Shown here: one piece after another, positions 4,635 to 25,924 of the stretch
Position numbering within the stretch: position 1 is the first letter of the stretch
Layout: every line of letters begins with the position of its first letter
UHGV virus genome: UHGV-0321443
Source: a virus
Reading direction: 5' to 3' (one strand)
DNA: 31,784 bases
The notes under the pieces: model-generated
The model's database searches: none
What the model was told of the DNA's origin: nothing
Seen by the model: the letters and a program-made list of their open reading frames with translations, nothing else
Program-made: the position numbers and the translations under genes

Positions 4635-4655
4635 CTGCTTTCTATGGAGTTAATT

Positions 4656-5456
4656 ATGGCAAAAAAACCTACACCAGACCAGGTAAAAAAGATTCGTTCC
4701 GGCATTACCAAGAAAATACGGTTTGAGGTTTTCAAGCGCGATGGCTTCAAATGCCAGTACTGTGGGAGTTCTGCGCCAGACGTCATCCTTCATGTCGACC
4801 ATATCAACCCAGTTAGCAAGGGTGGCGATAACGACATGATGAACCTTATTACTTCTTGCGATAGTTGTAATGGCGGGAAAAGCGACAAACTGCTCAGCGA
4901 TAACTCAATAATGGAAAAGCAAAGGCAGCAACTCCAGGAACTTAATACCAAGCGAGAGCAACTGGAGATGATGATCAAGTGGCGAGATGGTCTTAAGAGC
5001 CTGAAAGACGATGTTGTTGATATTGTCGCTACCAAAATTGACGACTGCATTGCACCATTTACTGTTAATGACAATGGGCGAAAATCTATCAAGAGATGGC
5101 TTCGAATATATAAGCTTGAAGAAATCCTCGATGCGATTGAGATTGCCGCAGATAAAAAACTCACCCAAGAAATAACCCATGAGCTTACTGGTGAATTCTT
5201 TGAGTACATCCCTCGCATAGCAGCGACAAAAAGAAAACCGCCAAAAGAACAAAGGATTCTATACATCAGAGGAATCCTTAAAAACCGCATATATATCAAT
5301 CAAAACCATGTAATGAGTTATCTCAAGGCATGGCTTTCATACGACTTAGATCTCGATGAACTTACTGAGTTTGCGAAAACAGTACCTAACTGGACAACGT
5401 TCAAGGAGTGGGTATCTGAACGCATTCGTGAAGCTCAGGAAGAACTCCCGTACTAA
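4656..5456 (+). CDS. HNH endonuclease-domain protein with an unknown C-terminal domain
   Basis: HNH motif region CQYCG...HVDHINPVSKGGDNDMMNLITSCDSCN; SD GGAG before the ATG at 4656; visibly AT-richer than neighbouring genes. Confidence 0.65.
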   Translation: MAKKPTPDQVKKIRSGITKKIRFEVFKRDGFKCQYCGSSAPDVILHVDHINPVSKGGDNDMMNLITSCDSCNGGKSDKLLSDNSIMEKQRQQLQELNTKREQLEMMIKWRDGLKSLKDDVVDIVATKIDDCIAPFTVNDNGRKSIKRWLRIYKLEEILDAIEIAADKKLTQEITHELTGEFFEYIPRIAATKRKPPKEQRILYIRGILKNRIYINQNHVMSYLKAWLSYDLDLDELTEFAKTVPNWTTFKEWVSERIREAQEELPY

Positions 5457-6336: not shown

Positions 6337-7182
6337 ATGACGCTGGATGAAAAGATCTCGCAACTGGAGAAAAAACTTGCAGAATTGAGTTCTCCGCCAA
6401 TTGCTATCGAGCATACAGCTGTAGAAATTGGCACTGGCATCTGTGAAAAACATGGTGAGTTTGAGCAGCGTAACCGTTATTCGACAGGGACAATTAAGTT
6501 TGCCTCAAGACCTAGCGAATGCCCGGAATGCATGAGAGATGAGCTTATTCGGCTACAGGCAGAGAAGATTAAAATCGACGAAGAATCACGTAAGCGCAAT
6601 GTCGAGTTTCTGTTGAATAATCTTGATATTCCTGAACGATTCAAGGGTTGCACACTACAGAACTACGAGCCAGTCAACGACGATGCAAAGAGAGTGCTCA
6701 GGGTGTGTCAGGCATACGCCAGCAAATGGCCTGAGAGGTTACAGAAAGGCGGTGGGCTGGTTATGTGTGGAAAGCCTGGTACTGGAAAGAATCATCTTGC
6801 ACTGGCTATCGCCCGGCACGCAATTACGGAACATCAAAGCTCAGCTATTTTCACAACGGCGCTGAAAATTGCCAGAGAATATAAATCAACATGGTCGAAA
6901 AACTCCACCCGCACAGAGGATGAAGTGATCCGACAGTTCACTAAACCTGACCTGCTAATTATCGATGAGGTTGGTGTGCAGTTTGGAAGCGAGGCGGAAA
7001 AGATGATCATGTTCGAAATCATCAACACCCGCTACGAGCGCATGAAGCCAACAATCCTGATTAGCAACCAGAGCAAAGATGAACTTTCGGCATTCATTGG
7101 TGAGCGTGTTATTGACAGGATGAATGATGGCGGCGGATGCACCCTTGCGTTTACATGGGATAGTTACAGGAGCAGATCGTGA
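6337..7182 (+). CDS. DnaC/IstB-like AAA+ ATPase (replicative helicase loader)
   Basis: Walker A GKPGTGKNHLALAIA and Walker B LLIIDEVG; start immediately follows the O-like stop, with SD AGGAG. Confidence 0.8.
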   Translation: MTLDEKISQLEKKLAELSSPPIAIEHTAVEIGTGICEKHGEFEQRNRYSTGTIKFASRPSECPECMRDELIRLQAEKIKIDEESRKRNVEFLLNNLDIPERFKGCTLQNYEPVNDDAKRVLRVCQAYASKWPERLQKGGGLVMCGKPGTGKNHLALAIARHAITEHQSSAIFTTALKIAREYKSTWSKNSTRTEDEVIRQFTKPDLLIIDEVGVQFGSEAEKMIMFEIINTRYERMKPTILISNQSKDELSAFIGERVIDRMNDGGGCTLAFTWDSYRSRS

Positions 7183-13077: not shown

Positions 13078-13428
13078 ATGACTCAAAACTATGAACTGAT
13101 TGTGAAAGGGATCCGCAATTTTGAGAATAAAGTTACGGTAACTTTAGCGTTACGGGACAAAAAACGCTTTGACGGTGAAATTTTTGACCTGGACATCTCG
13201 CTGGACCGTGTTGAAGGTGCCGCGCTGGGGTTTTATGAGGCAGCAGCCAGAAGGAGCATCAGACAGGTCTTCCTGGATGTTGCTGCCGGGTTATGTGAAG
13301 GGGATGAGCAGTCGCCGGAAAAGCGCCCCGTAATTTTAGAGGCGCAGAATGTGTGGATAACCTACAAAGTAAAGCTACCAGGAAGAATTACTGGTTCTCT
13401 GAAGACTCCTCCGGAATCACAACCTTAA
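13078..13428 (+). CDS. Hypothetical protein (116 aa) lying between holin and endolysin
   Basis: Six-frame ORF starting 5 nt after the holin stop; no recognisable motif; possibly related to DUF1327-type genes seen at this position in some E. coli prophages. Confidence 0.45.
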   Translation: MTQNYELIVKGIRNFENKVTVTLALRDKKRFDGEIFDLDISLDRVEGAALGFYEAAARRSIRQVFLDVAAGLCEGDEQSPEKRPVILEAQNVWITYKVKLPGRITGSLKTPPESQP

Positions 13429-19227: not shown

Positions 19228-20735
19228 TGGCAATTCTTGATGATGTGATTGGCGTTTTTTCACCTGGATGGAAAGCGGCAAGGCTGCGTTCCCGTGCGGT
19301 GATCCAGGCTTATGAAGCCGTAAAAACGACGCGGACACACAAAGCCCGACGGGAGAACCGAACTGCCGACCAGCTAAGCCAGTACGGGGCCGTGTCGTTA
19401 CGTGAGCAGGCCCGTTACCTTGATAACAACCACGATCTGGTTATTGGTGTATTTGACAAGCTGGAAGAACGGGTGGTGGGGAAAAACGGGATTATTGTCG
19501 AGCCACATCCGGTATTACGCAATGGGGCCATTGCCCGTGATCTGGCAGCGGAGATTCGCACCCGATGGAGTGAATGGTCTGTCAGCCCGGAAGTCACCGG
19601 GCAGTTTACCCGTCCGATGCTGGAACGTCTGATGCTGCGTACCTGGCTGCGCGATGGTGAGGTGTTTGCCCAGATGGTTTCCGGGCGCATAAACAGCCTG
19701 ACGCCTTCTGCCGGTGTTCATTTCTGGCTGGAGGCGCTCGAGCCGGACTTTATTCCCATGACCAGTGATGAGAGCAACAGGCTGAATCAGGGCGTGTTTG
19801 TTGATGACTGGGGGCGTCCCGAAAAATATCTGGTGTATAAAAGCCGTCCCGTATCCGGACGGCAGATGGAAACCAAAGAAGTGGATGCAGAGCGAATGCT
19901 GCATCTTAAATTTGTTCGCCGTCTGCACCAGATACGCGGGACGTCTTTGTTGTCCGGTGTGCTGATCCGCCTCAGTGCCCTGAAAGATTATGAAGATTAT
20001 GAGCTGACTGCAGCAAGGATCGCCGCTGCTCTGGGGATGTACATCCGCAAAGGCGACGGGCAGAGCTATGAACCGGATGGTAATGGCAGCAAGGATAAGG
20101 AACGCGAGCTTACCATTCAGCCAGGCATTATTTACGACGATCTGAAACCCGGCGAAGAAATCGGAATGGTGAAGTCGGATCGCCCCAATCCTAACCTTGA
20201 AACTTTTCGTAATGGTCAGTTGCGTGCCGTGGCGGCGGGCAGTCGTCTGAGTTTTTCCAGTACAGCGCGCAACTATAACGGCACTTACAGCGCCCAGCGC
20301 CAGGAGCTGGTTGAATCTACTGATGGCTACCTGATCCTGCAGGACTGGTTTATTGGTGCCGTCACCCGCCCGATGTATCGTGCCTGGCTGAAACAGGCTG
20401 TGGCATCCGGTGTTATCAGGCTACCCCGCGATCTTGACCGTTCTTCACTGTATACCGCGGTGTATTCCGGACCAGTGATGCCGTGGATTGACCCTGTTAA
20501 GGAGGCTGAGGCCTGGAAAATCCAGATTCGTGGTGGAGCGGCGACAGAATCAGACTGGGTACGTGCTGGTGGTCGTAATCCGGATGATGTCAAACGTCGG
20601 CGCAAGGCCGAAATTGATGAAAACCGCAAGCTGGATCTGGTATTTGATACCGATCCGGCCAGTGATAAAGGAGGCAGCAGTGCCGCAACGAAACGACAGG
20701 AGCCGCAGCACACCGACGACCAGTCCGAAGAATAA
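19227..20735 (+). CDS. Portal protein (lambda gpB family)
   Basis: About 500 aa immediately after the W-like gene; start overlaps its stop (TGATG). Confidence 0.8.
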   Translation: MAILDDVIGVFSPGWKAARLRSRAVIQAYEAVKTTRTHKARRENRTADQLSQYGAVSLREQARYLDNNHDLVIGVFDKLEERVVGKNGIIVEPHPVLRNGAIARDLAAEIRTRWSEWSVSPEVTGQFTRPMLERLMLRTWLRDGEVFAQMVSGRINSLTPSAGVHFWLEALEPDFIPMTSDESNRLNQGVFVDDWGRPEKYLVYKSRPVSGRQMETKEVDAERMLHLKFVRRLHQIRGTSLLSGVLIRLSALKDYEDYELTAARIAAALGMYIRKGDGQSYEPDGNGSKDKERELTIQPGIIYDDLKPGEEIGMVKSDRPNPNLETFRNGQLRAVAAGSRLSFSSTARNYNGTYSAQRQELVESTDGYLILQDWFIGAVTRPMYRAWLKQAVASGVIRLPRDLDRSSLYTAVYSGPVMPWIDPVKEAEAWKIQIRGGAATESDWVRAGGRNPDDVKRRRKAEIDENRKLDLVFDTDPASDKGGSSAATKRQEPQHTDDQSEE

Positions 20736-20748
20736 TTCCTGGTTCAGG

Positions 20749-22707
20749 ATGCAGGCTGGTCACCAGAGTGACGCGGATATTTATATTTATGACGAGATTG
20801 GTTTCTGGGGTGTTACAGCGAAGCAGTTTATCAGTGATCTGAATGCACTGGGCGATATCACCCACATTAATCTCCATATCAATTCACCGGGTGGCGATGT
20901 CTTTGAAGGCATCGCCATTTTTAATGCGCTGAAAACACATGGTGCGTCCATTACCGTTTATGTCGACGGTGTGGCGGCGTCAATGGCGTCGGTCATTGCG
21001 ATGGTGGGAAACCCGGTCATTATGCCGGAAAACACCTTCATGATGATTCATAAACCATTTGGCTTTACGGGCGGTGATGCGGAGGACATGCGCACCTATG
21101 CCGACCTGCTCGATAATGTTGAGGCGGTTCTGTTACCCGCTTATGCACAGAAAACCGGGAAAACCACCGATGAAATTGCTGCCATGCTGGCGGATGAGAC
21201 CTGGATGTCCGGTGCCGAATGTCTGGCACATGGATTTGCTGATCAGGTGACGCCAGCCGTTAAGGCAATGGCATGTATTCAGTCAAAACGTACAGAGGAA
21301 TTTAAAAAGATGCCGGAATCCATTCGAAACATGATTACTCCGCCACGCAACAGTGCTCCACGCGTACAGGATGATGAACCTGCAGCCTCCCGGACGCCAG
21401 TGCAGGCAGCAGCACCCGTGGTGGATGAAAACAGTATCCGTGCGCAGGTACTGGCAGAGCAAAAAGCGCGTGTAAACGGTATTAATGATCTGTTTGCCAT
21501 GTTTGGCGGGCGTTATCAGACGCTGCAGGCTCAGTGTCTTGCCGATCCTGAATGTTCGCTGGAGCAGGCCCGCGAAAAGCTGTTGAACGAGATGGGGCGC
21601 GAGTCCACGCCATCCAATAAAAATACACCGGCTCATATTTATGCCGGTAACGGTAATTTTGTGGGGGACGGGATCCGCCAGGCGCTGATGGCGCGTGCCG
21701 GATTTGAAAAAACCGAACGTGATAATGTCTACAACGGGATGACCCTGCGTGAATATGCCCGTATGTCACTGACTGAACGGGGTATTGGGGTTTCCAGTTA
21801 TAACCCGATGCAGATGGTCGGTGCGGCGTTCACACACAGTACGTCTGACTTCGGTAATATTCTGCTGGATGTTGCGAACAAAGCCATTCTGCAGGGCTGG
21901 GAAGATGCTCCTGAAACCTATGAACAGTGGACGCGGAAAGGTCAGTTGTCTGATTTTAAAATTGCCCATCGTGTGGGTATGGGGGGCTTCAGTGCTCTGC
22001 GTCAGGTGCGTGAAGGGGCGGAATATAAATACGTCACCACCGGAGATAAACAGGCCACTATTGCACTGGCGACCTATGGCGAGCTGTTCAGTATCACCCG
22101 TCAGGCCATTATCAATGATGATCTGAATATGCTGACCGATGTCCCGATGAAACTGGGCCGTGCGGCGAAATCCACTATTGCCGATCTGGTTTATGCCATT
22201 CTGACGTCTAACCCGAAAATCTCCACAGATAATGTAAGTCTGTTCGATAAAGCGAAACATGCAAACGTACTGGAGAGCGCTGCAATGGACGTGGCATCGC
22301 TGGATAAAGCCCGCCAGTTGATGCGCGTTCAGAAAGAGGGGGAGCGTCATCTGAATATTCGTCCTGCGTTCGTACTGGTACCGACGGCGATGGAGTCTGT
22401 TGCTAACCAGGTCATTCGCTCCTCAAGTGTCAAGGGGGCTGACATTAACGCCGGTATTATTAACCCGGTGAAAGATTTTGCGACCGTTATTGCAGAGCCT
22501 CGTCTTGATGATAACAGCCAGACCACCTTCTACCTGGCTGCGTCAAAAGGCTCCGATACGATTGAAGTGGCTTATCTCAACGGTGTGGATACGCCATATA
22601 TTGATCAGATGGAGGGCTTCAGTGTGGATGGCGTGACAACGAAAGTGCGTATTGACGCCGGTGTCGCGCCAGTTGATCACCGCGGTCTGGTGAAATGTAC
22701 GGCGTAA
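20749..22707 (+). CDS. Prohead protease (ClpP/S49-like) fused in one ORF to a scaffold/major-capsid-like C-terminal region
   Basis: N-terminal IYIYDEIGFWGV...INSPGGDVFEGIAIFNAL...ASMASVIAMVG is a ClpP-like serine protease signature; long C-terminal region is in the major-capsid position. Confidence 0.7.
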   Translation: MQAGHQSDADIYIYDEIGFWGVTAKQFISDLNALGDITHINLHINSPGGDVFEGIAIFNALKTHGASITVYVDGVAASMASVIAMVGNPVIMPENTFMMIHKPFGFTGGDAEDMRTYADLLDNVEAVLLPAYAQKTGKTTDEIAAMLADETWMSGAECLAHGFADQVTPAVKAMACIQSKRTEEFKKMPESIRNMITPPRNSAPRVQDDEPAASRTPVQAAAPVVDENSIRAQVLAEQKARVNGINDLFAMFGGRYQTLQAQCLADPECSLEQAREKLLNEMGRESTPSNKNTPAHIYAGNGNFVGDGIRQALMARAGFEKTERDNVYNGMTLREYARMSLTERGIGVSSYNPMQMVGAAFTHSTSDFGNILLDVANKAILQGWEDAPETYEQWTRKGQLSDFKIAHRVGMGGFSALRQVREGAEYKYVTTGDKQATIALATYGELFSITRQAIINDDLNMLTDVPMKLGRAAKSTIADLVYAILTSNPKISTDNVSLFDKAKHANVLESAAMDVASLDKARQLMRVQKEGERHLNIRPAFVLVPTAMESVANQVIRSSSVKGADINAGIINPVKDFATVIAEPRLDDNSQTTFYLAASKGSDTIEVAYLNGVDTPYIDQMEGFSVDGVTTKVRIDAGVAPVDHRGLVKCTA

Positions 22708-24395: not shown

Positions 24396-25139
24396 ATGAC
24401 CACACCAAATCCACTGGCAAAGACGAAAGGTGCGGGGACGACGTTCTGGATGTATACCGGCAACGGCGACGCATTTGCGAACCCTTTGTCGGACACTGAC
24501 TGGCTGCGTCTTGCGATGGTGAAGGATCTGCAACCTGGCGAAATGACCGCTGATGCAGAAGATGATACTTATCTCGATGATGAAGATGCAGACTGGAAAA
24601 CGACAACCCAGGGGCAGAAATCAGTCGGTGATACTTCGGCGACGCTGGCCTGGCGTCCGGGTGACAGCGGGCAGAAAAAACTGGTTCAGTTGTTCGACTC
24701 CGGTGAAGTCTGCGCGTTTCGTATCAAATATCCCAACGGTACTGTTGATGTTTTCCGTGGCTGGCTGAGTTCACTGGGTAAAACCATTGCCTCAAAAGAC
24801 GTGATGACCCGCACTGTGAAAATCAGCGGTGTGGGGCGTCCGTATCTGGCAGAGGAAGGCACTGAAACAGTGAGCGTTACCGGGCTGACGGTGGCACCGG
24901 CATCTGCCAGTGTAAAAGTGGGAGCAACCACCACGCTGACCTTTACAGTAAAACCTGACGGAGCCAGTGACAAAGCGATCAGTGTGCATTCGTCAGATCC
25001 ACAGACTGCCACGGTGACCCTGAACGGGCTTGTAGCCACGGTGAAAGGCGTGAAGCAGGGCAGTGTCAGCATTGTGGGTATGACTTCTGACGGCGATTTT
25101 GTGGCCGTGGCTGCGGTGACTGTCAGCGCCGCAGGTTAA
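24396..25139 (+). CDS. Major tail protein (gpV-like) with C-terminal Ig-like (Big_2-type) domain
   Basis: SD GGAGG; C-terminal VTGLTVAPASASVKVGATTTLTFTVKPDGASDKAISVHSSDPQTATV is a typical Big_2 pattern. Confidence 0.75.
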   Translation: MTTPNPLAKTKGAGTTFWMYTGNGDAFANPLSDTDWLRLAMVKDLQPGEMTADAEDDTYLDDEDADWKTTTQGQKSVGDTSATLAWRPGDSGQKKLVQLFDSGEVCAFRIKYPNGTVDVFRGWLSSLGKTIASKDVMTRTVKISGVGRPYLAEEGTETVSVTGLTVAPASASVKVGATTTLTFTVKPDGASDKAISVHSSDPQTATVTLNGLVATVKGVKQGSVSIVGMTSDGDFVAVAAVTVSAAG

Positions 25140-25196
25140 CAGGACGATACTCATCATTTGCCCCGGTTATCCGGGGCTTTTTTGCAGGTGGAGAAC

Positions 25197-25586
25197 ATGA
25201 TGTTTCTGAAACAGGGCACGTTTAATTATGAAAAACAGTCCGTGGTGCTCAGTGAGCTGTCCGGGCTGCAGAGAATTGAATATCTGGCGTTTGTTCAGCA
25301 GCGAACGGCAAAGTTTGATGCCGGTGAGGGAGAACTGCCGGAGGCTGAACGACAGATTGCTTTTCTGCGGATGGGGATGGATATCAATGCCTGGCTGGTT
25401 TCCCGCTCACTGTGGAATGCGGAACAGTCTCAGGATGTTGAGACGCTTTACGCATCCGTTATTACAACATGGTCGTATGATGCCCTGGGTGCGGGGGCGG
25501 AGATGGTTCTGTCGCTGAGCGGTATGGGGGCCATTGATAATGCCGGGGATGATGAGCATGAGGCGCTGACGCCGGAAAAGTCATGA
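25197..25586 (+). CDS. Tail assembly chaperone G
   Basis: MMFLKQGTFNYEKQSVVLSELSGLQRIEYLAFVQQR resembles the lambda gpG N-terminus (MFLKTESFEHNGVTVTLSELSALQRIEHLA, from memory). Confidence 0.75.
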   Translation: MMFLKQGTFNYEKQSVVLSELSGLQRIEYLAFVQQRTAKFDAGEGELPEAERQIAFLRMGMDINAWLVSRSLWNAEQSQDVETLYASVITTWSYDALGAGAEMVLSLSGMGAIDNAGDDEHEALTPEKS

Positions 25587-25924
25587 CGCGGGAAATGCAG
25601 TTTGTCATGCGGCTTGCCCGGGAGTTCCGGCGGGCAGACTGGCGGCGGATGCTGTCGGAAATGTCGGCCACTGAGCTTGGTGAGTGGGGCGATTATTTCC
25701 GGATGCAGAGCTTCAGTGATGTGTGGATGGATGCGCAGTTTGCCTCGCTGAAGGCATTGATCGTGAGAATGGTGTCCGGCAGCAGTGATGCTGCGGTGGC
25801 TGATTTCAGCCTTTTACCGGAAGAGAACGGGATACCGGAGCGAACGGACGAAGAACTGATGCATCTTGGGGAAGGTATTTCCGGAGGTGTGCGTTATGGA
25901 CCAGATAGCCAACCTGGTCATTGA
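25562..25924 (+). CDS. T segment of the G-T tail assembly protein, reached by -1 programmed frameshift from G
   Basis: -1 frame is open from 25562 and overlaps the end of G; GGAAAAG at 25574..25580 is one nucleotide off the lambda slippery site GGGAAAG. Confidence 0.5.
   Translation, partial: GADAGKVMTREMQFVMRLAREFRRADWRRMLSEMSATELGEWGDYFRMQSFSDVWMDAQFASLKALIVRMVSGSSDAAVADFSLLPEENGIPERTDEELMHLGEGISGGVRYGPDSQPGH

What the first reader, a model, noticed from the sequence alone, without database searches (positions are those of the whole stretch)
25562..25586. G-T programmed -1 frameshift confined to an 8-codon window, with a non-canonical slippery heptamer
The T frame opens at 25562 and G terminates at 25584..25586, so the shift must occur within 25562..25586. 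The only plausible slip site is GGAAAAG (25574..25580), one nucleotide different from the lambda GGGAAAG. The P-site re-pairing would be weaker than in lambda, which may change G to G-T stoichiometry.
Basis: partly seen in the sequence, partly recalled or inferred. Interest (0 to 1): 0.45.

Follow-up and report, generated by a model that had tools for sequence, protein, structure and literature searches.

The report
Ordinary phage tail G-T frameshift site
This is the usual -1 ribosomal frameshift that tailed lambda-like phages use to make a small amount of a G-T tail-assembly fusion protein; its GGAAAAG slip site looks odd next to lambda's GGGAAAG, but it is as common as lambda's in this gene family and is already annotated in phages phi80 and LLS.

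Summary
G (25197..25586, Pfam Phage_TAC_2) and the -1 frame T ORF (open 25562..25924, Pfam Phage_tail_T) overlap by 25 nt. G_GAA_AAG (25574..25580) is in the right phase and is the only heptamer there whose A-site tRNA re-pairs perfectly.

The window is an mEp460/cdtI-like lambdoid prophage of E. coli, present in 1846 of 5426 complete genomes.

Comparison shows the heptamer is not unusual:
- In 119 IMG/VR loci found from a T-domain motif alone, the position 27 nt upstream is GGAAAAG in 56 (35 distinct contexts), GGGAAAG in 53, AAAAAAG in 8, and something else in 2.
- GenBank already marks GGAAAAG as the -1 slip site in phi80 and phage LLS, and the Gifsy-1 record describes T as made by frameshifting.
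- The T-frame protein aligns without gaps from the first codon after the heptamer, and no start codon is conserved.
- The ATG at 25583 is a rare allele (2 of 80 close relatives) with a weak ribosome-binding site.

Published in vitro work used G GAA AAG as the poorly slippery control against G GGA AAG. I found no conserved stimulatory element.

Verdict: real, already known, low interest.

The parts
24396..25139 (+). Major tail tube protein gene (lambda V homologue) with a C-terminal Ig-like domain. It marks the upstream boundary of the G-T-H module.
   Evidence: Pfam Phage_TTP_12 5.9e-67 and Big_2 7.2e-12. ATG 24396 is preceded by AAGGAGGTG. It matches the mEp460 major tail protein.
25160..25183 (+). 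Intrinsic-terminator-like hairpin (GCCCCGG TTAT CCGGGGC followed by T6) between V and G.
   Evidence: Terminator scan. The mEp460 record NC_019716 annotates the same feature as a rho-independent terminator. A role in lowering G/T/H expression relative to V is inferred, not tested.
25197..25586 (+). Gene G, the tail assembly chaperone (129 aa, 14.3 kDa). This is the zero-frame product and ends ...ALTPEKS.
   Evidence: Pfam Phage_TAC_2 1.8e-40. It is 32% identical to lambda G and 59% to Gifsy-1 G. PGAP names it 'phage tail assembly chaperone G'. Mass.
25559..25561 (+). TGA in the -1 (T) frame. It sets the 5' limit of the region where the shift can occur.
   Evidence: Sequence and frame analysis.
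25574..25580 (+). Slip site G_GAA_AAG. P-site tRNA-Glu moves from GAA to GGA (middle G.U pair); A-site tRNA-Lys moves from AAG to AAA (cognate).
   Evidence: It is the only in-phase candidate in the overlap. It is invariant in 36 distinct sequence contexts of the family. The same heptamer is annotated as the -1 slip site in phi80 FN582354 and LLS PQ299149.
25584..25586 (+). G stop codon (TGA), one codon after the heptamer. It sets the 3' limit of the shift region. In this allele it overlaps a T-frame ATG at 25583 (ATGA).
   Evidence: Sequence. The allele TCA TGA occurs in 2 of 80 close IMG/VR relatives; the other 78 have TCC TGA.
25580..25924 (+). T-frame part of the fusion: 114 codons, VMTREMQFVMRLAREF..., plus its stop at 25922..25924. 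It overlaps the start of H by 29 nt.
   Evidence: Pfam Phage_tail_T 5e-15. It aligns without gaps with the T parts of lambda, phi80, Gifsy-1 and others from the first codon after the heptamer.
25197..25924 (+). Predicted G-T fusion product (242 aa, 27.2 kDa), with junction ...HEALTPEK|VMTREMQF...
   Evidence: Conceptual translation with a -1 shift after AAG 25578..25580. No protein evidence is available here.
25896..28952 (+). Tape measure protein gene (lambda H homologue). It marks the downstream boundary of the module.
   Evidence: Pfam TMP_2 5.1e-48 and Tape_meas_lam_C 3.6e-23. Strong SD GGAGGTG upstream, -13.3 kcal/mol.

Best explanation
Genes G and T of an mEp460/cdtI-like lambdoid prophage are expressed as in phage lambda. 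Most ribosomes translate G to its stop at 25584..25586 and make the 14-kDa chaperone gpG. A small fraction slip back one nucleotide on G_GAA_AAG (25574..25580): tRNA-Lys re-pairs from AAG to AAA, and tRNA-Glu re-pairs imperfectly from GAA to GGA. Those ribosomes continue in the T frame and make a 242-aa G-T fusion (...TPEK-VMTREMQF...).

By analogy with lambda, the G part binds the tape measure protein, the T part recruits the major tail protein, and the fixed low GT:G ratio is what tail assembly needs.

Shown here: the gene identities, the frame geometry, the unique in-phase heptamer, its conservation, and the lack of a conserved T start codon. Inferred: that slippage actually occurs, its efficiency (probably lower than lambda's roughly 4%), and the function of the two proteins.
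For: 1. Context. The order V - G - T - H is backed by family-specific Pfam domains: Phage_TTP_12, Phage_TAC_2 1.8e-40, Phage_tail_T 5e-15, TMP_2.

2. Geometry. T is in the -1 frame of G, and the overlap is only 25 nt.

3. Unique site. G_GAA_AAG is the only in-phase heptamer with cognate A-site re-pairing.

4. Unbiased survey. 119 IMG/VR loci were found by a T-domain DNA motif alone. Position -27 always ends in AAAG, and the heptamer is GGAAAAG in 56 loci (35 contexts), GGGAAAG in 53 (23), AAAAAAG in 8 (5), AGAAAAG in 1 and AGGAAAG in 1 (same result).

5. The flanks vary but the heptamer does not. The preceding codons seen are CCG, GCG, ACG, GTG, CTG and TTG, all ending in G.

6. Relatives narrow the shift region from both sides. 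In L199-201 the T frame opens 3 nt before the heptamer. In L321 the G stop follows it directly. In Edwardsiella the overlap is 16 nt.

7. The T-frame proteins of 19 lineages align without gaps from the first residue after the heptamer. No position carries a conserved Met, Val or Leu start.

8. T-frame ATGs have weak anti-SD pairing (-1.1 to -4.3 kcal/mol), against -15.3 for V, -7.0 for G and -13.3 for H.

9. Annotators of relatives already mark this. The phi80 record has 'slippery sequence for -1 translational frameshift' on GGAAAAG with a joined gpG-T CDS. LLS has 'minus-one programmed translational frameshift site GGAAAAG'. Gifsy-1 T is described as made 'by translational frameshifting'.

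10. Lambda G-T biology is taken from Atkins et al. 2016 (PMC5009743) and Maynard et al. 2012 (PMC3296357).
Against: - No protein or reporter data exist here for this phage or, as far as I could find, for any GGAAAAG-type G-T site.
- In a reconstituted E. coli system, AUG GAA AAG gave mainly zero-frame product and served as the poorly slippery control (PMC6924986).
- In vivo, A_AAG tetramers without a stimulator were barely above background: 0.147% against 0.112% (PMC4066793).
- I found no conserved stimulator. The downstream fold has z = -1.12 and z = 0.01 and there is no consensus structure. The upstream SD-like GAGG is not unusual for this ORF and is absent in the phi80 and Atlantibacter clades.
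- The same in-phase heptamer occurs in three ordinary ORFs of the window, so the motif alone does not imply programmed shifting.
- In every record of the mEp460 clade that I checked, T is annotated as a separate gene.
Confidence: 0.85

Rival explanations
1. T is translated on its own, either by termination-reinitiation at the ATGA overlap (ATG 25583 / TGA 25584) or from the ATG at 25595 that PGAP uses. It would be a free 110-113 aa protein, and no frameshift would be needed.
For: This allele has an ATG at 25583 overlapping the G stop, a classic coupling arrangement. PhiR40_1 annotators start T there. PGAP and the mEp460 and Tritos annotators start T at the ATG equivalent to 25595.
Against: - The 25583 ATG is a rare derived allele. 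78 of 80 close IMG/VR relatives have CTG there, and only 6 of 1849 E. coli records match the exact 55-mer.
- The homologous codon is L, F or H in other lineages. The 25595 position is L or V in the Gifsy-1, Citrobacter, phi80, lambda and Serratia lineages.
- Anti-SD pairing before all three T-frame ATGs is weak, -1.1 to -4.3 kcal/mol.
- Three different start choices by different annotators show there is no obvious start.
- T-frame conservation begins upstream of these ATGs, directly at the heptamer.
- In lambda, the T domain acts as part of the fusion (PMC5009743).

Some free T may still be made in this particular allele as a side product.
Confidence: 0.07
2. The shift is real but involves only tRNA-Lys slipping on the A_AAG tetramer, in the A site or later in the P site with UCA waiting. 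tRNA-Glu does not re-pair, so the first three bases of the 'heptamer' are irrelevant. The fusion protein would be identical.
For: A_AAG is the most shift-prone tetramer in E. coli and is used alone in some IS elements (PMC4066793). The AAAG part is the only fully invariant part of the site across all 119 loci. The P-site re-pairing GAA to GGA has a middle-position mismatch.
Against: - Heptamer position 1 is G in 109 of 111 loci with GGAAAAG, GGGAAAG or their position-1 variants, although it is the third base of six different preceding codons (CCG, GCG, ACG, GTG, CTG, TTG).
- Positions 1-3 are limited to GGA, GGG or AAA in 117 of 119 loci. That is the pattern expected if P-site re-pairing is under selection.
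- Tetramers without a stimulator are barely shifty in vivo, and no stimulator was found.
Confidence: 0.15
3. No recoding occurs. The T frame is a decaying or unexpressed remnant in a defective prophage, and the heptamer is a coincidence.
For: GGAAAAG is common in the window, with 10 copies, 3 of them in slip phase in ordinary ORFs. Many E. coli prophages are defective.
Against: - The T frame stays open for 120 codons and has a significant Phage_tail_T match.
- It is conserved at protein level across lineages with about 30% G identity.
- The same module at 98-99% identity is present in plaque-forming phages: mEp460, cdtI, Ayreon, Tritos, HannyBb and the PhiR40_1 isolates.
- 77 of 80 close relatives keep the full 120-codon T frame.
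Confidence: 0.03
4. The frame change happens at the RNA level, by transcriptional slippage of RNA polymerase on the A run, rather than on the ribosome.
For: The site contains a run of four A (25576..25579).
Against: From general knowledge (reviewed in PMC5009743), productive transcriptional slippage in bacteria needs runs of about 8-9 or more identical bases, and four A is far too short. The G_GGA_AAG variant in relatives has only three A, yet occupies the same position.
Confidence: 0.01

Closest known systems
Bacteriophage lambda G / G-T programmed -1 frameshift (Levin, Hendrix and Casjens 1993; Xu, Hendrix and Duda 2004, 2013, 2014, as cited in PMC5009743)
   Same: Same gene order V-G-T-H and same Pfam families, Phage_TAC_2 and Phage_tail_T. 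T is in the -1 frame with no start of its own. The slip site is at the homologous position, 27 nt before the conserved F-x-(L/M)-x-LARE motif. The A-site codon is the same, AAG to AAA, read by tRNA-Lys. No stimulatory structure is evident.
   Different: The heptamer is G_GAA_AAG instead of G_GGA_AAG. The zero-frame residue is Glu instead of Gly, and the P-site tRNA is tRNA-Glu with a middle-position G.U after the slip, instead of tRNA-Gly with a wobble-position change. The G stop lies 3 nt rather than 15 nt after the heptamer. The T part is shorter, 114 against 144 residues. G is only 32% identical.
Phage phi80 (FN582354) and phage LLS (PQ299149) G-T genes, annotated with GGAAAAG as the -1 slip site
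   Same: Identical heptamer in identical phase and at the homologous position. A joined G-T CDS is annotated in both records.
   Different: G is only 33-34% identical. The overlap is longer, 82-85 nt, and the G stop is 15 nt after the heptamer. The preceding codon is GCG or GTG rather than CCG. I found no experimental measurement for phi80 or LLS.
Salmonella prophage Gifsy-1 G/T (NC_010392; T annotated as made by translational frameshifting)
   Same: Closest divergent relative, with G 59% identical. It has the same local sequence ACG CCG GAA AAG TCC TGA, with the stop 3 nt after the heptamer.
   Different: CTG rather than ATG at the stop overlap, and CTG at the position of window ATG 25595. 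The overlap is 31 nt.
E. coli dnaX A_AAA_AAG -1 frameshift
   Same: The same shift-prone A_AAG A-site codon is read by the single tRNA-Lys (mnm5s2UUU). In this window a GAGG lies 10 nt 5' of the heptamer, which is the spacing of the dnaX SD-like stimulator.
   Different: dnaX has a fully cognate heptamer, a strong downstream hairpin and about 50% efficiency. Here there is no significant downstream structure. The SD-like element is weak, not unusual for the ORF, and not conserved across GGAAAAG clades.
A_AAG tetramer sites in IS elements, and CGA_AAG in Bacillus subtilis cdd (the latter recalled from memory, Mejlhede et al. 1999, not checked here)
   Same: These are precedents for -1 shifting where only the A-site Lys codon re-pairs perfectly and the P-site codon is non-canonical (tetramers: PMC4066793).
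   Different: Those sites depend on stimulators such as a pseudoknot or an SD-like sequence. None is evident here.

Membership tests
Lambda-type G/G-T tail assembly chaperone with programmed -1 frameshift (Xu, Hendrix and Duda 2004 class) | Two overlapping ORFs located between the major tail protein gene and the tape measure gene | tested here: met
   V 24396..25139, G 25197..25586, T frame 25562..25924, H 25896..28952, with matching Pfam domains.
Lambda-type G/G-T tail assembly chaperone with programmed -1 frameshift (Xu, Hendrix and Duda 2004 class) | Sequence homology of both parts to lambda gpG and gpT | tested here: met
   Phage_TAC_2 1.8e-40 and Phage_tail_T 5e-15. G is 32% identical to lambda G. 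The T part aligns with lambda T from the junction onward.
Lambda-type G/G-T tail assembly chaperone with programmed -1 frameshift (Xu, Hendrix and Duda 2004 class) | The downstream ORF is in the -1 frame and lacks its own conserved start codon and ribosome-binding site | tested here: met
   Frame analysis. No conserved start in 19 lineages. Weak anti-SD pairing before all T-frame ATGs. The ATG at 25583 is a rare allele.
Lambda-type G/G-T tail assembly chaperone with programmed -1 frameshift (Xu, Hendrix and Duda 2004 class) | A slippery sequence inside the overlap, in the phase X_XXY_YYZ | tested here: inconclusive
   The strict X_XXY_YYZ rule is not met: G_GAA_AAG has GA where XX is required. 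It is nevertheless in phase, its A-site re-pairing is cognate, and it is conserved in 35 contexts at the position where lambda has G_GGA_AAG. GenBank records of phi80 and LLS accept it as the slip site.
Lambda-type G/G-T tail assembly chaperone with programmed -1 frameshift (Xu, Hendrix and Duda 2004 class) | A G-T fusion protein is made at a low fixed fraction of G (about 1:30 in lambda) and is required for tail assembly | not testable with these tools
   This needs a western blot, mass spectrometry or a reporter, plus genetics. The lambda values come from PMC5009743 and PMC3296357.
dnaX-type stimulated -1 frameshift (SD-like element 10-14 nt upstream plus a downstream hairpin) | An upstream SD-like element at the right spacing that is unusual for the gene and conserved | tested here: not met
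   GAGG sits 10 nt upstream (25560..25563) but pairs at only -5.6 kcal/mol, which is percentile 0.17-0.32 within the G ORF. The GAGGTG allele reaches -9.2 (percentile 0.04-0.12). The element is absent in the phi80, Atlantibacter and Pluralibacter clades.
dnaX-type stimulated -1 frameshift (SD-like element 10-14 nt upstream plus a downstream hairpin) | A stable downstream stem-loop 5-8 nt after the heptamer | tested here: not met
   The fold of 25581..25680 has z = -1.12. The first 60 nt have z = 0.01, and there is no consensus structure across 12 GGAAAAG lineages (alifold -2.9 kcal/mol).

The most novel reading that the evidence does not exclude
GGAAAAG is co-dominant in this family, yet it behaves as the 'non-slippery' control in a purified E. 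coli system. One reading is that phages of this type run tail assembly at a several-fold lower GT:G ratio than lambda. The other is that they rely on a stimulator not yet recognised, such as codon context, the nascent peptide, or in some clades an SD-like element at the dnaX spacing.

Both slipping tRNAs here, tRNA-Glu and tRNA-Lys, carry mnm5s2U34. In lambda only tRNA-Lys does. The ratio in GGAAAAG phages could therefore be more sensitive to the host's tRNA thiolation state (Tus/MnmA/IscS) than lambda's. This extends the host-resistance link described by Maynard et al. 2012.
Probability: 0.2. Interest if true: 0.45.

Novelty: already known. Interest (0 to 1): 0.15.

Why it matters
The practical value is mainly for annotation. 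In the five records of this prophage clade whose annotation I inspected closely (mEp460, Ayreon, PhiR40_1, Tritos and two E. coli genomes annotated by PGAP), T is a stand-alone gene with at least three different arbitrary start codons. The clade is present in about a third of complete E. coli genomes. The correct product is almost certainly a 242-aa G-T fusion joined at 25580.

Scientifically, the survey shows that the gpG/gpT family uses essentially three heptamers: G_GGA_AAG, G_GAA_AAG and A_AAA_AAG. The 'imperfect' one is as common as lambda's.

This gives a natural, well-controlled pair of sites for measuring how much a middle-position P-site G.U pair costs in vivo, and for asking whether the GT:G ratio differs between phage lineages. 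The question is modest and incremental, not a new phenomenon.

Tried and rejected
1. Upstream SD-like stimulator. GAGG sits 10 nt 5' of the heptamer, at the dnaX spacing, and SD-like tetramers occur 10-12 nt upstream in the Gifsy-1, Citrobacter, Superficieibacter and Phytobacter lineages. Anti-SD duplex energies compared with the rest of each G ORF show nothing unusual for the window allele (percentile 0.17-0.32). The phi80, Atlantibacter and Pluralibacter clades have none. I rejected it as a general feature. It is not excluded for the GAGGTG majority allele.

2. Downstream stimulatory structure. No significant fold and no consensus structure. The only lineage-specific hairpin, in the Atlantibacter-like clade, starts immediately after the heptamer, which is too close for a classical stimulator.

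3. Other slip sites in the overlap. All six in-phase heptamers were enumerated and none of the others is plausible.

4. Association between heptamer type and distance to the G stop. Both +3 and +15 occur with both heptamers.

5. Literature search for GGAAAAG or 'G GAA AAG' in phage tail frameshifting. No phage paper was found, only the Rodnina-lab in vitro work. The phi80/Lula genome paper was not available, and Xu et al. 2004 is not in the library, so I could not check whether its tables already list GGAAAAG.

6. I did not run the large protein-database searches, structure prediction or the metagenome scan. The Pfam assignments and DNA-level comparisons were already decisive.

Full report
**1. 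What is at the coordinates.** The sequence and a frame analysis confirm every element of the observation.
- G reads ATG 25197 ... CCG GAA AAG TCA TGA and stops at 25584..25586 (129 aa).
- The -1 frame has TGA at 25559..25561 and is then open from 25562 to 25924.
- The two frames overlap by 25 nt, which is 8 T-frame codons.
- GGAAAAG (25574..25580) lies in the phase G_GAA_AAG.
- Of the six in-phase heptamers in the overlap, only this one lets the A-site tRNA re-pair perfectly (AAG to AAA). Its P-site change (GAA to GGA) is a single mismatch.
- An ATG at 25583 in the T frame overlaps the G stop (ATGA).

**2. What the genes are.**
- Pfam assigns the zero-frame ORF to Phage_TAC_2, the lambda gpG family (1.8e-40), and the -1 ORF to Phage_tail_T (5e-15).
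- The upstream gene is a lambda-type tail tube protein with an Ig-like domain. The downstream gene is a 1018-aa tape measure protein.
- The rest of the window is a lambdoid prophage. It has a cI-like repressor, a DnaC-like loader, a gpA terminase, a lambda-family portal, a ClpP-capsid fusion, and the Z and U tail genes.
- The G-T region is 98-99% identical to phages mEp460, cdtI, Ayreon, Tritos, HannyBb and several PhiR isolates.
- It occurs in 1846 of 5426 complete E. coli genomes.

**3. Is the heptamer more than chance?** On its own it is not. GGAAAAG occurs 10 times in the window against 5.7 expected. It is in slip phase in three other ORFs, at 4913, 6996 and 13317. The evidence for function is comparative.

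**4. Comparison with relatives.**
- *First survey.* I collected G-T loci from GenBank phages, one-genome-per-species bacterial contigs and IMG/VR.
  - Lineages whose G proteins are only 32-59% identical carry one of two heptamers at the homologous place.
  - GGGAAAG is found in lambda, E. albertii, Serratia, Symbiopectobacterium and Edwardsiella.
  - GGAAAAG is found in this clade, Gifsy-1, Citrobacter, Atlantibacter, phi80/LLS, Superficieibacter, Pseudocitrobacter, Phytobacter and Pluralibacter.
- *Unbiased survey.* I then scanned IMG/VR with a DNA pattern built only from the conserved T motif (F-x-(L/M)-x-LARE...DWR), leaving the heptamer free.
  - In 119 loci the seven bases 27 nt upstream were GGAAAAG in 56 (35 distinct contexts), GGGAAAG in 53 (23), AAAAAAG in 8 (5), AGAAAAG in 1 and AGGAAAG in 1 (same picture).
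  - GGAAAAG is therefore co-dominant in the family, not an exception.
- *The flanks diverge freely.*
  - The codon before the heptamer is CCG, GCG, ACG, GTG, CTG or TTG, and always ends in G.
  - The codon after it is TCC, TCA, CCC, CCT, CGT, CGC, CTT or a stop.
  - The G stop lies 0, 3 or 15 nt downstream.
  - The T frame opens between 3 and more than 80 nt upstream.
  - Taken together, the relatives confine the shift to the heptamer plus or minus 3 nt.

**5. No independent start for T.**
- T-frame translations of 19 lineages align without a gap from the first codon after the heptamer: (V/A)(L/F/M/H)xx(E/Q/A)(L/M/V)xF(V/A)(L/M)xLARE. No column has a conserved initiator.
- The ATG at 25583 is a derived allele caused by TCC to TCA, which is silent in G. 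78 of 80 close IMG/VR relatives have CTG there.
- Only 6 of 1849 E. coli records match the exact 55-mer.
- The allele is shared with phage PhiR40_1.
- Anti-SD pairing before the three T-frame ATGs is -1.1 to -4.3 kcal/mol, against -15.3 for V, -7.0 for G, -13.3 for H and -10.2 for L.
- Annotators have chosen three different starts for T in this clade, which is itself a sign that there is no real one.

**6. Already annotated elsewhere.**
- The phi80 record FN582354 carries a joined gpG-T CDS and a misc_feature 'slippery sequence for -1 translational frameshift'. I verified that this feature is GGAAAAG.
- Phage LLS (PQ299149) says 'minus-one programmed translational frameshift site GGAAAAG'.
- In Gifsy-1, T is described as 'part of ... 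gpG by translational frameshifting', and its local sequence ACG CCG GAA AAG TCC TGA is almost identical to the window's.

**7. Mechanism.**
- *Best-supported model.* This is the lambda model (PMC5009743). About 96% of ribosomes stay in frame in lambda and the rest make G-T (PMC3296357).
- *The slip here.* tRNA-Lys (mnm5s2UUU) shifts from AAG to its preferred AAA. tRNA-Glu shifts from GAA to GGA, keeping the first and third pairs and putting a G.U in the middle.
- *Two tRNAs or one.* Heptamer position 1 is conserved as G although it is the wobble base of six different preceding codons. Positions 1-3 are limited to GGA, GGG or AAA in 117 of 119 loci. Both facts argue that P-site re-pairing is under selection. 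This favours two-tRNA slippage over a pure A_AAG tetramer mechanism.
- *Product.* The predicted product is a 242-aa, 27.2-kDa fusion with junction ...ALTPEK|VMTREMQF....

**8. Efficiency.**
- Peng et al. 2019 used AUG GAA AAG as the sequence 'unfavorable for slippage' because of exactly this second-position mismatch. They saw mainly zero-frame product, whereas G GGA AAG was slippery (PMC6924986).
- Sharma et al. 2014 found A_AAG tetramers barely above background without a stimulator (PMC4066793).
- Bock et al. 2019 measured about 5 kJ/mol for a first-position A.U to G.U change in the P site. [quoted passage not shown] They did not test second-position mismatches (PMC6787027).
- I therefore infer a lower GT:G ratio than lambda's. 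This is not measured.

**9. Search for compensating stimulators.** Nothing convincing was found.
- A GAGG lies 10 nt upstream of the heptamer, at the dnaX spacing, and the majority allele has GAGGTG. Its anti-SD energy is ordinary for this Glu/Asp-rich ORF, and several GGAAAAG clades lack any such element.
- Downstream RNA folds no better than shuffled sequence, and there is no consensus structure.

**10. Verdict.**
- The feature is the ordinary, conserved G-T recoding site of lambda-like siphophages, in a heptamer variant that is abundant and already annotated in relatives.
- The remaining open point is quantitative: the in vivo efficiency of G_GAA_AAG relative to G_GGA_AAG, and whether it depends on mnm5s2U on both tRNAs.
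- The practical outcome is an annotation correction for a prophage clade found in about a third of E. coli genomes.

Noticed in passing
window 25160..25183 (+): A strong intrinsic-terminator-like hairpin (7 G-C pairs, GCCCCGG TTAT CCGGGGC, then TTTTTT) sits between the major tail gene V and G. It is also annotated in mEp460. It would lower transcription of G/T/H relative to V, adding a second layer of stoichiometry control beside the frameshift.
   Followed up: partly
window 25582 (C to A; TCA TGA, giving ATG 25583): A substitution that is silent in G creates an ATGA stop-start overlap in the T frame (L to M in T). It is a rare allele: 2 of 80 IMG/VR relatives, and 6 of 1849 E. coli records match the exact 55-mer. 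It is shared with phage PhiR40_1 induced from ECOR13. It could allow a little free T to be made by reinitiation in this allele only. It also extends a weak inverted repeat, CATGAC (25582..25587) with GTCATG (25604..25609).
   Followed up: partly
window 25560..25563 (+): A GAGG lies exactly 10 nt 5' of the heptamer, the spacing of the dnaX SD-like frameshift stimulator. Most close relatives have the stronger GAGGTG (25564 C/T polymorphism; in 52 of 80 IMG/VR relatives). It is not statistically unusual within the ORF and is absent from other GGAAAAG clades.
   Followed up: yes
L031-L043 (genome-contig hits): G-T sequences identical to lambda's turn up in assemblies labelled Kitasatospora, Pseudomonas, Shewanella, Paenibacillus, Oceanobacillus, Neobacillus, Leeuwenhoekiella, Pseudoxanthomonas, Psychrobacter, Chromatium and others. 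They are mostly on short contigs with coverage near 1. This is almost certainly lambda control-DNA contamination of those assemblies, not real prophages.
   Followed up: no
L017, L188, L191 (Atlantibacter-like clade), the 42 nt directly after the heptamer: An 11-bp hairpin (UCCUCGCCGGC...GCUGGCGAGGGA) begins at the first base after GGAAAAG. Fold z is -1.3 to -2.5 against shuffles, and the hairpin is specific to this lineage. It is too close to the slip site for a classical stimulator, and its meaning is unknown.
   Followed up: no
window 4685..4691 (+), in ORF 4644..5456: A_AAA_AAG, the most slippery E. coli heptamer, is in slip phase 14 codons into an ORF for an HNH-endonuclease-domain protein (Pfam HNH 1.1e-13). 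A -1 shift would terminate at 4726. It is probably incidental, but it would cost some expression. G_GAA_AAG is also in slip phase at 4913 in the same ORF, at 6996 in a DnaC/IstB-like ATPase ORF, and at 13317 in a DUF1327 ORF.
   Followed up: partly
L296 and L297 (IMG/VR): These are the only two loci of 119 where heptamer position 1 is not conserved: AGAAAAG in a phi80-like context and AGGAAAG in a lambda-like context. They may be defective prophages or sequencing errors. They would be natural tests of the importance of position 1.
   Followed up: no
L260, L268, L325, L334, L337 (IMG/VR): A third heptamer class, A_AAA_AAG, occupies the same position in 8 loci (5 contexts) of the gpG/gpT family. 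The family therefore uses three heptamers, all with the A_AAG A-site part.
   Followed up: partly
window 20488..22707 (+): A single long ORF combines a ClpP-type protease domain (residues 95-255) with a phage capsid domain (residues 441-736), as in mEp460 and cdtI. The mEp460 record annotates it only as 'head maturation protease'.
   Followed up: no
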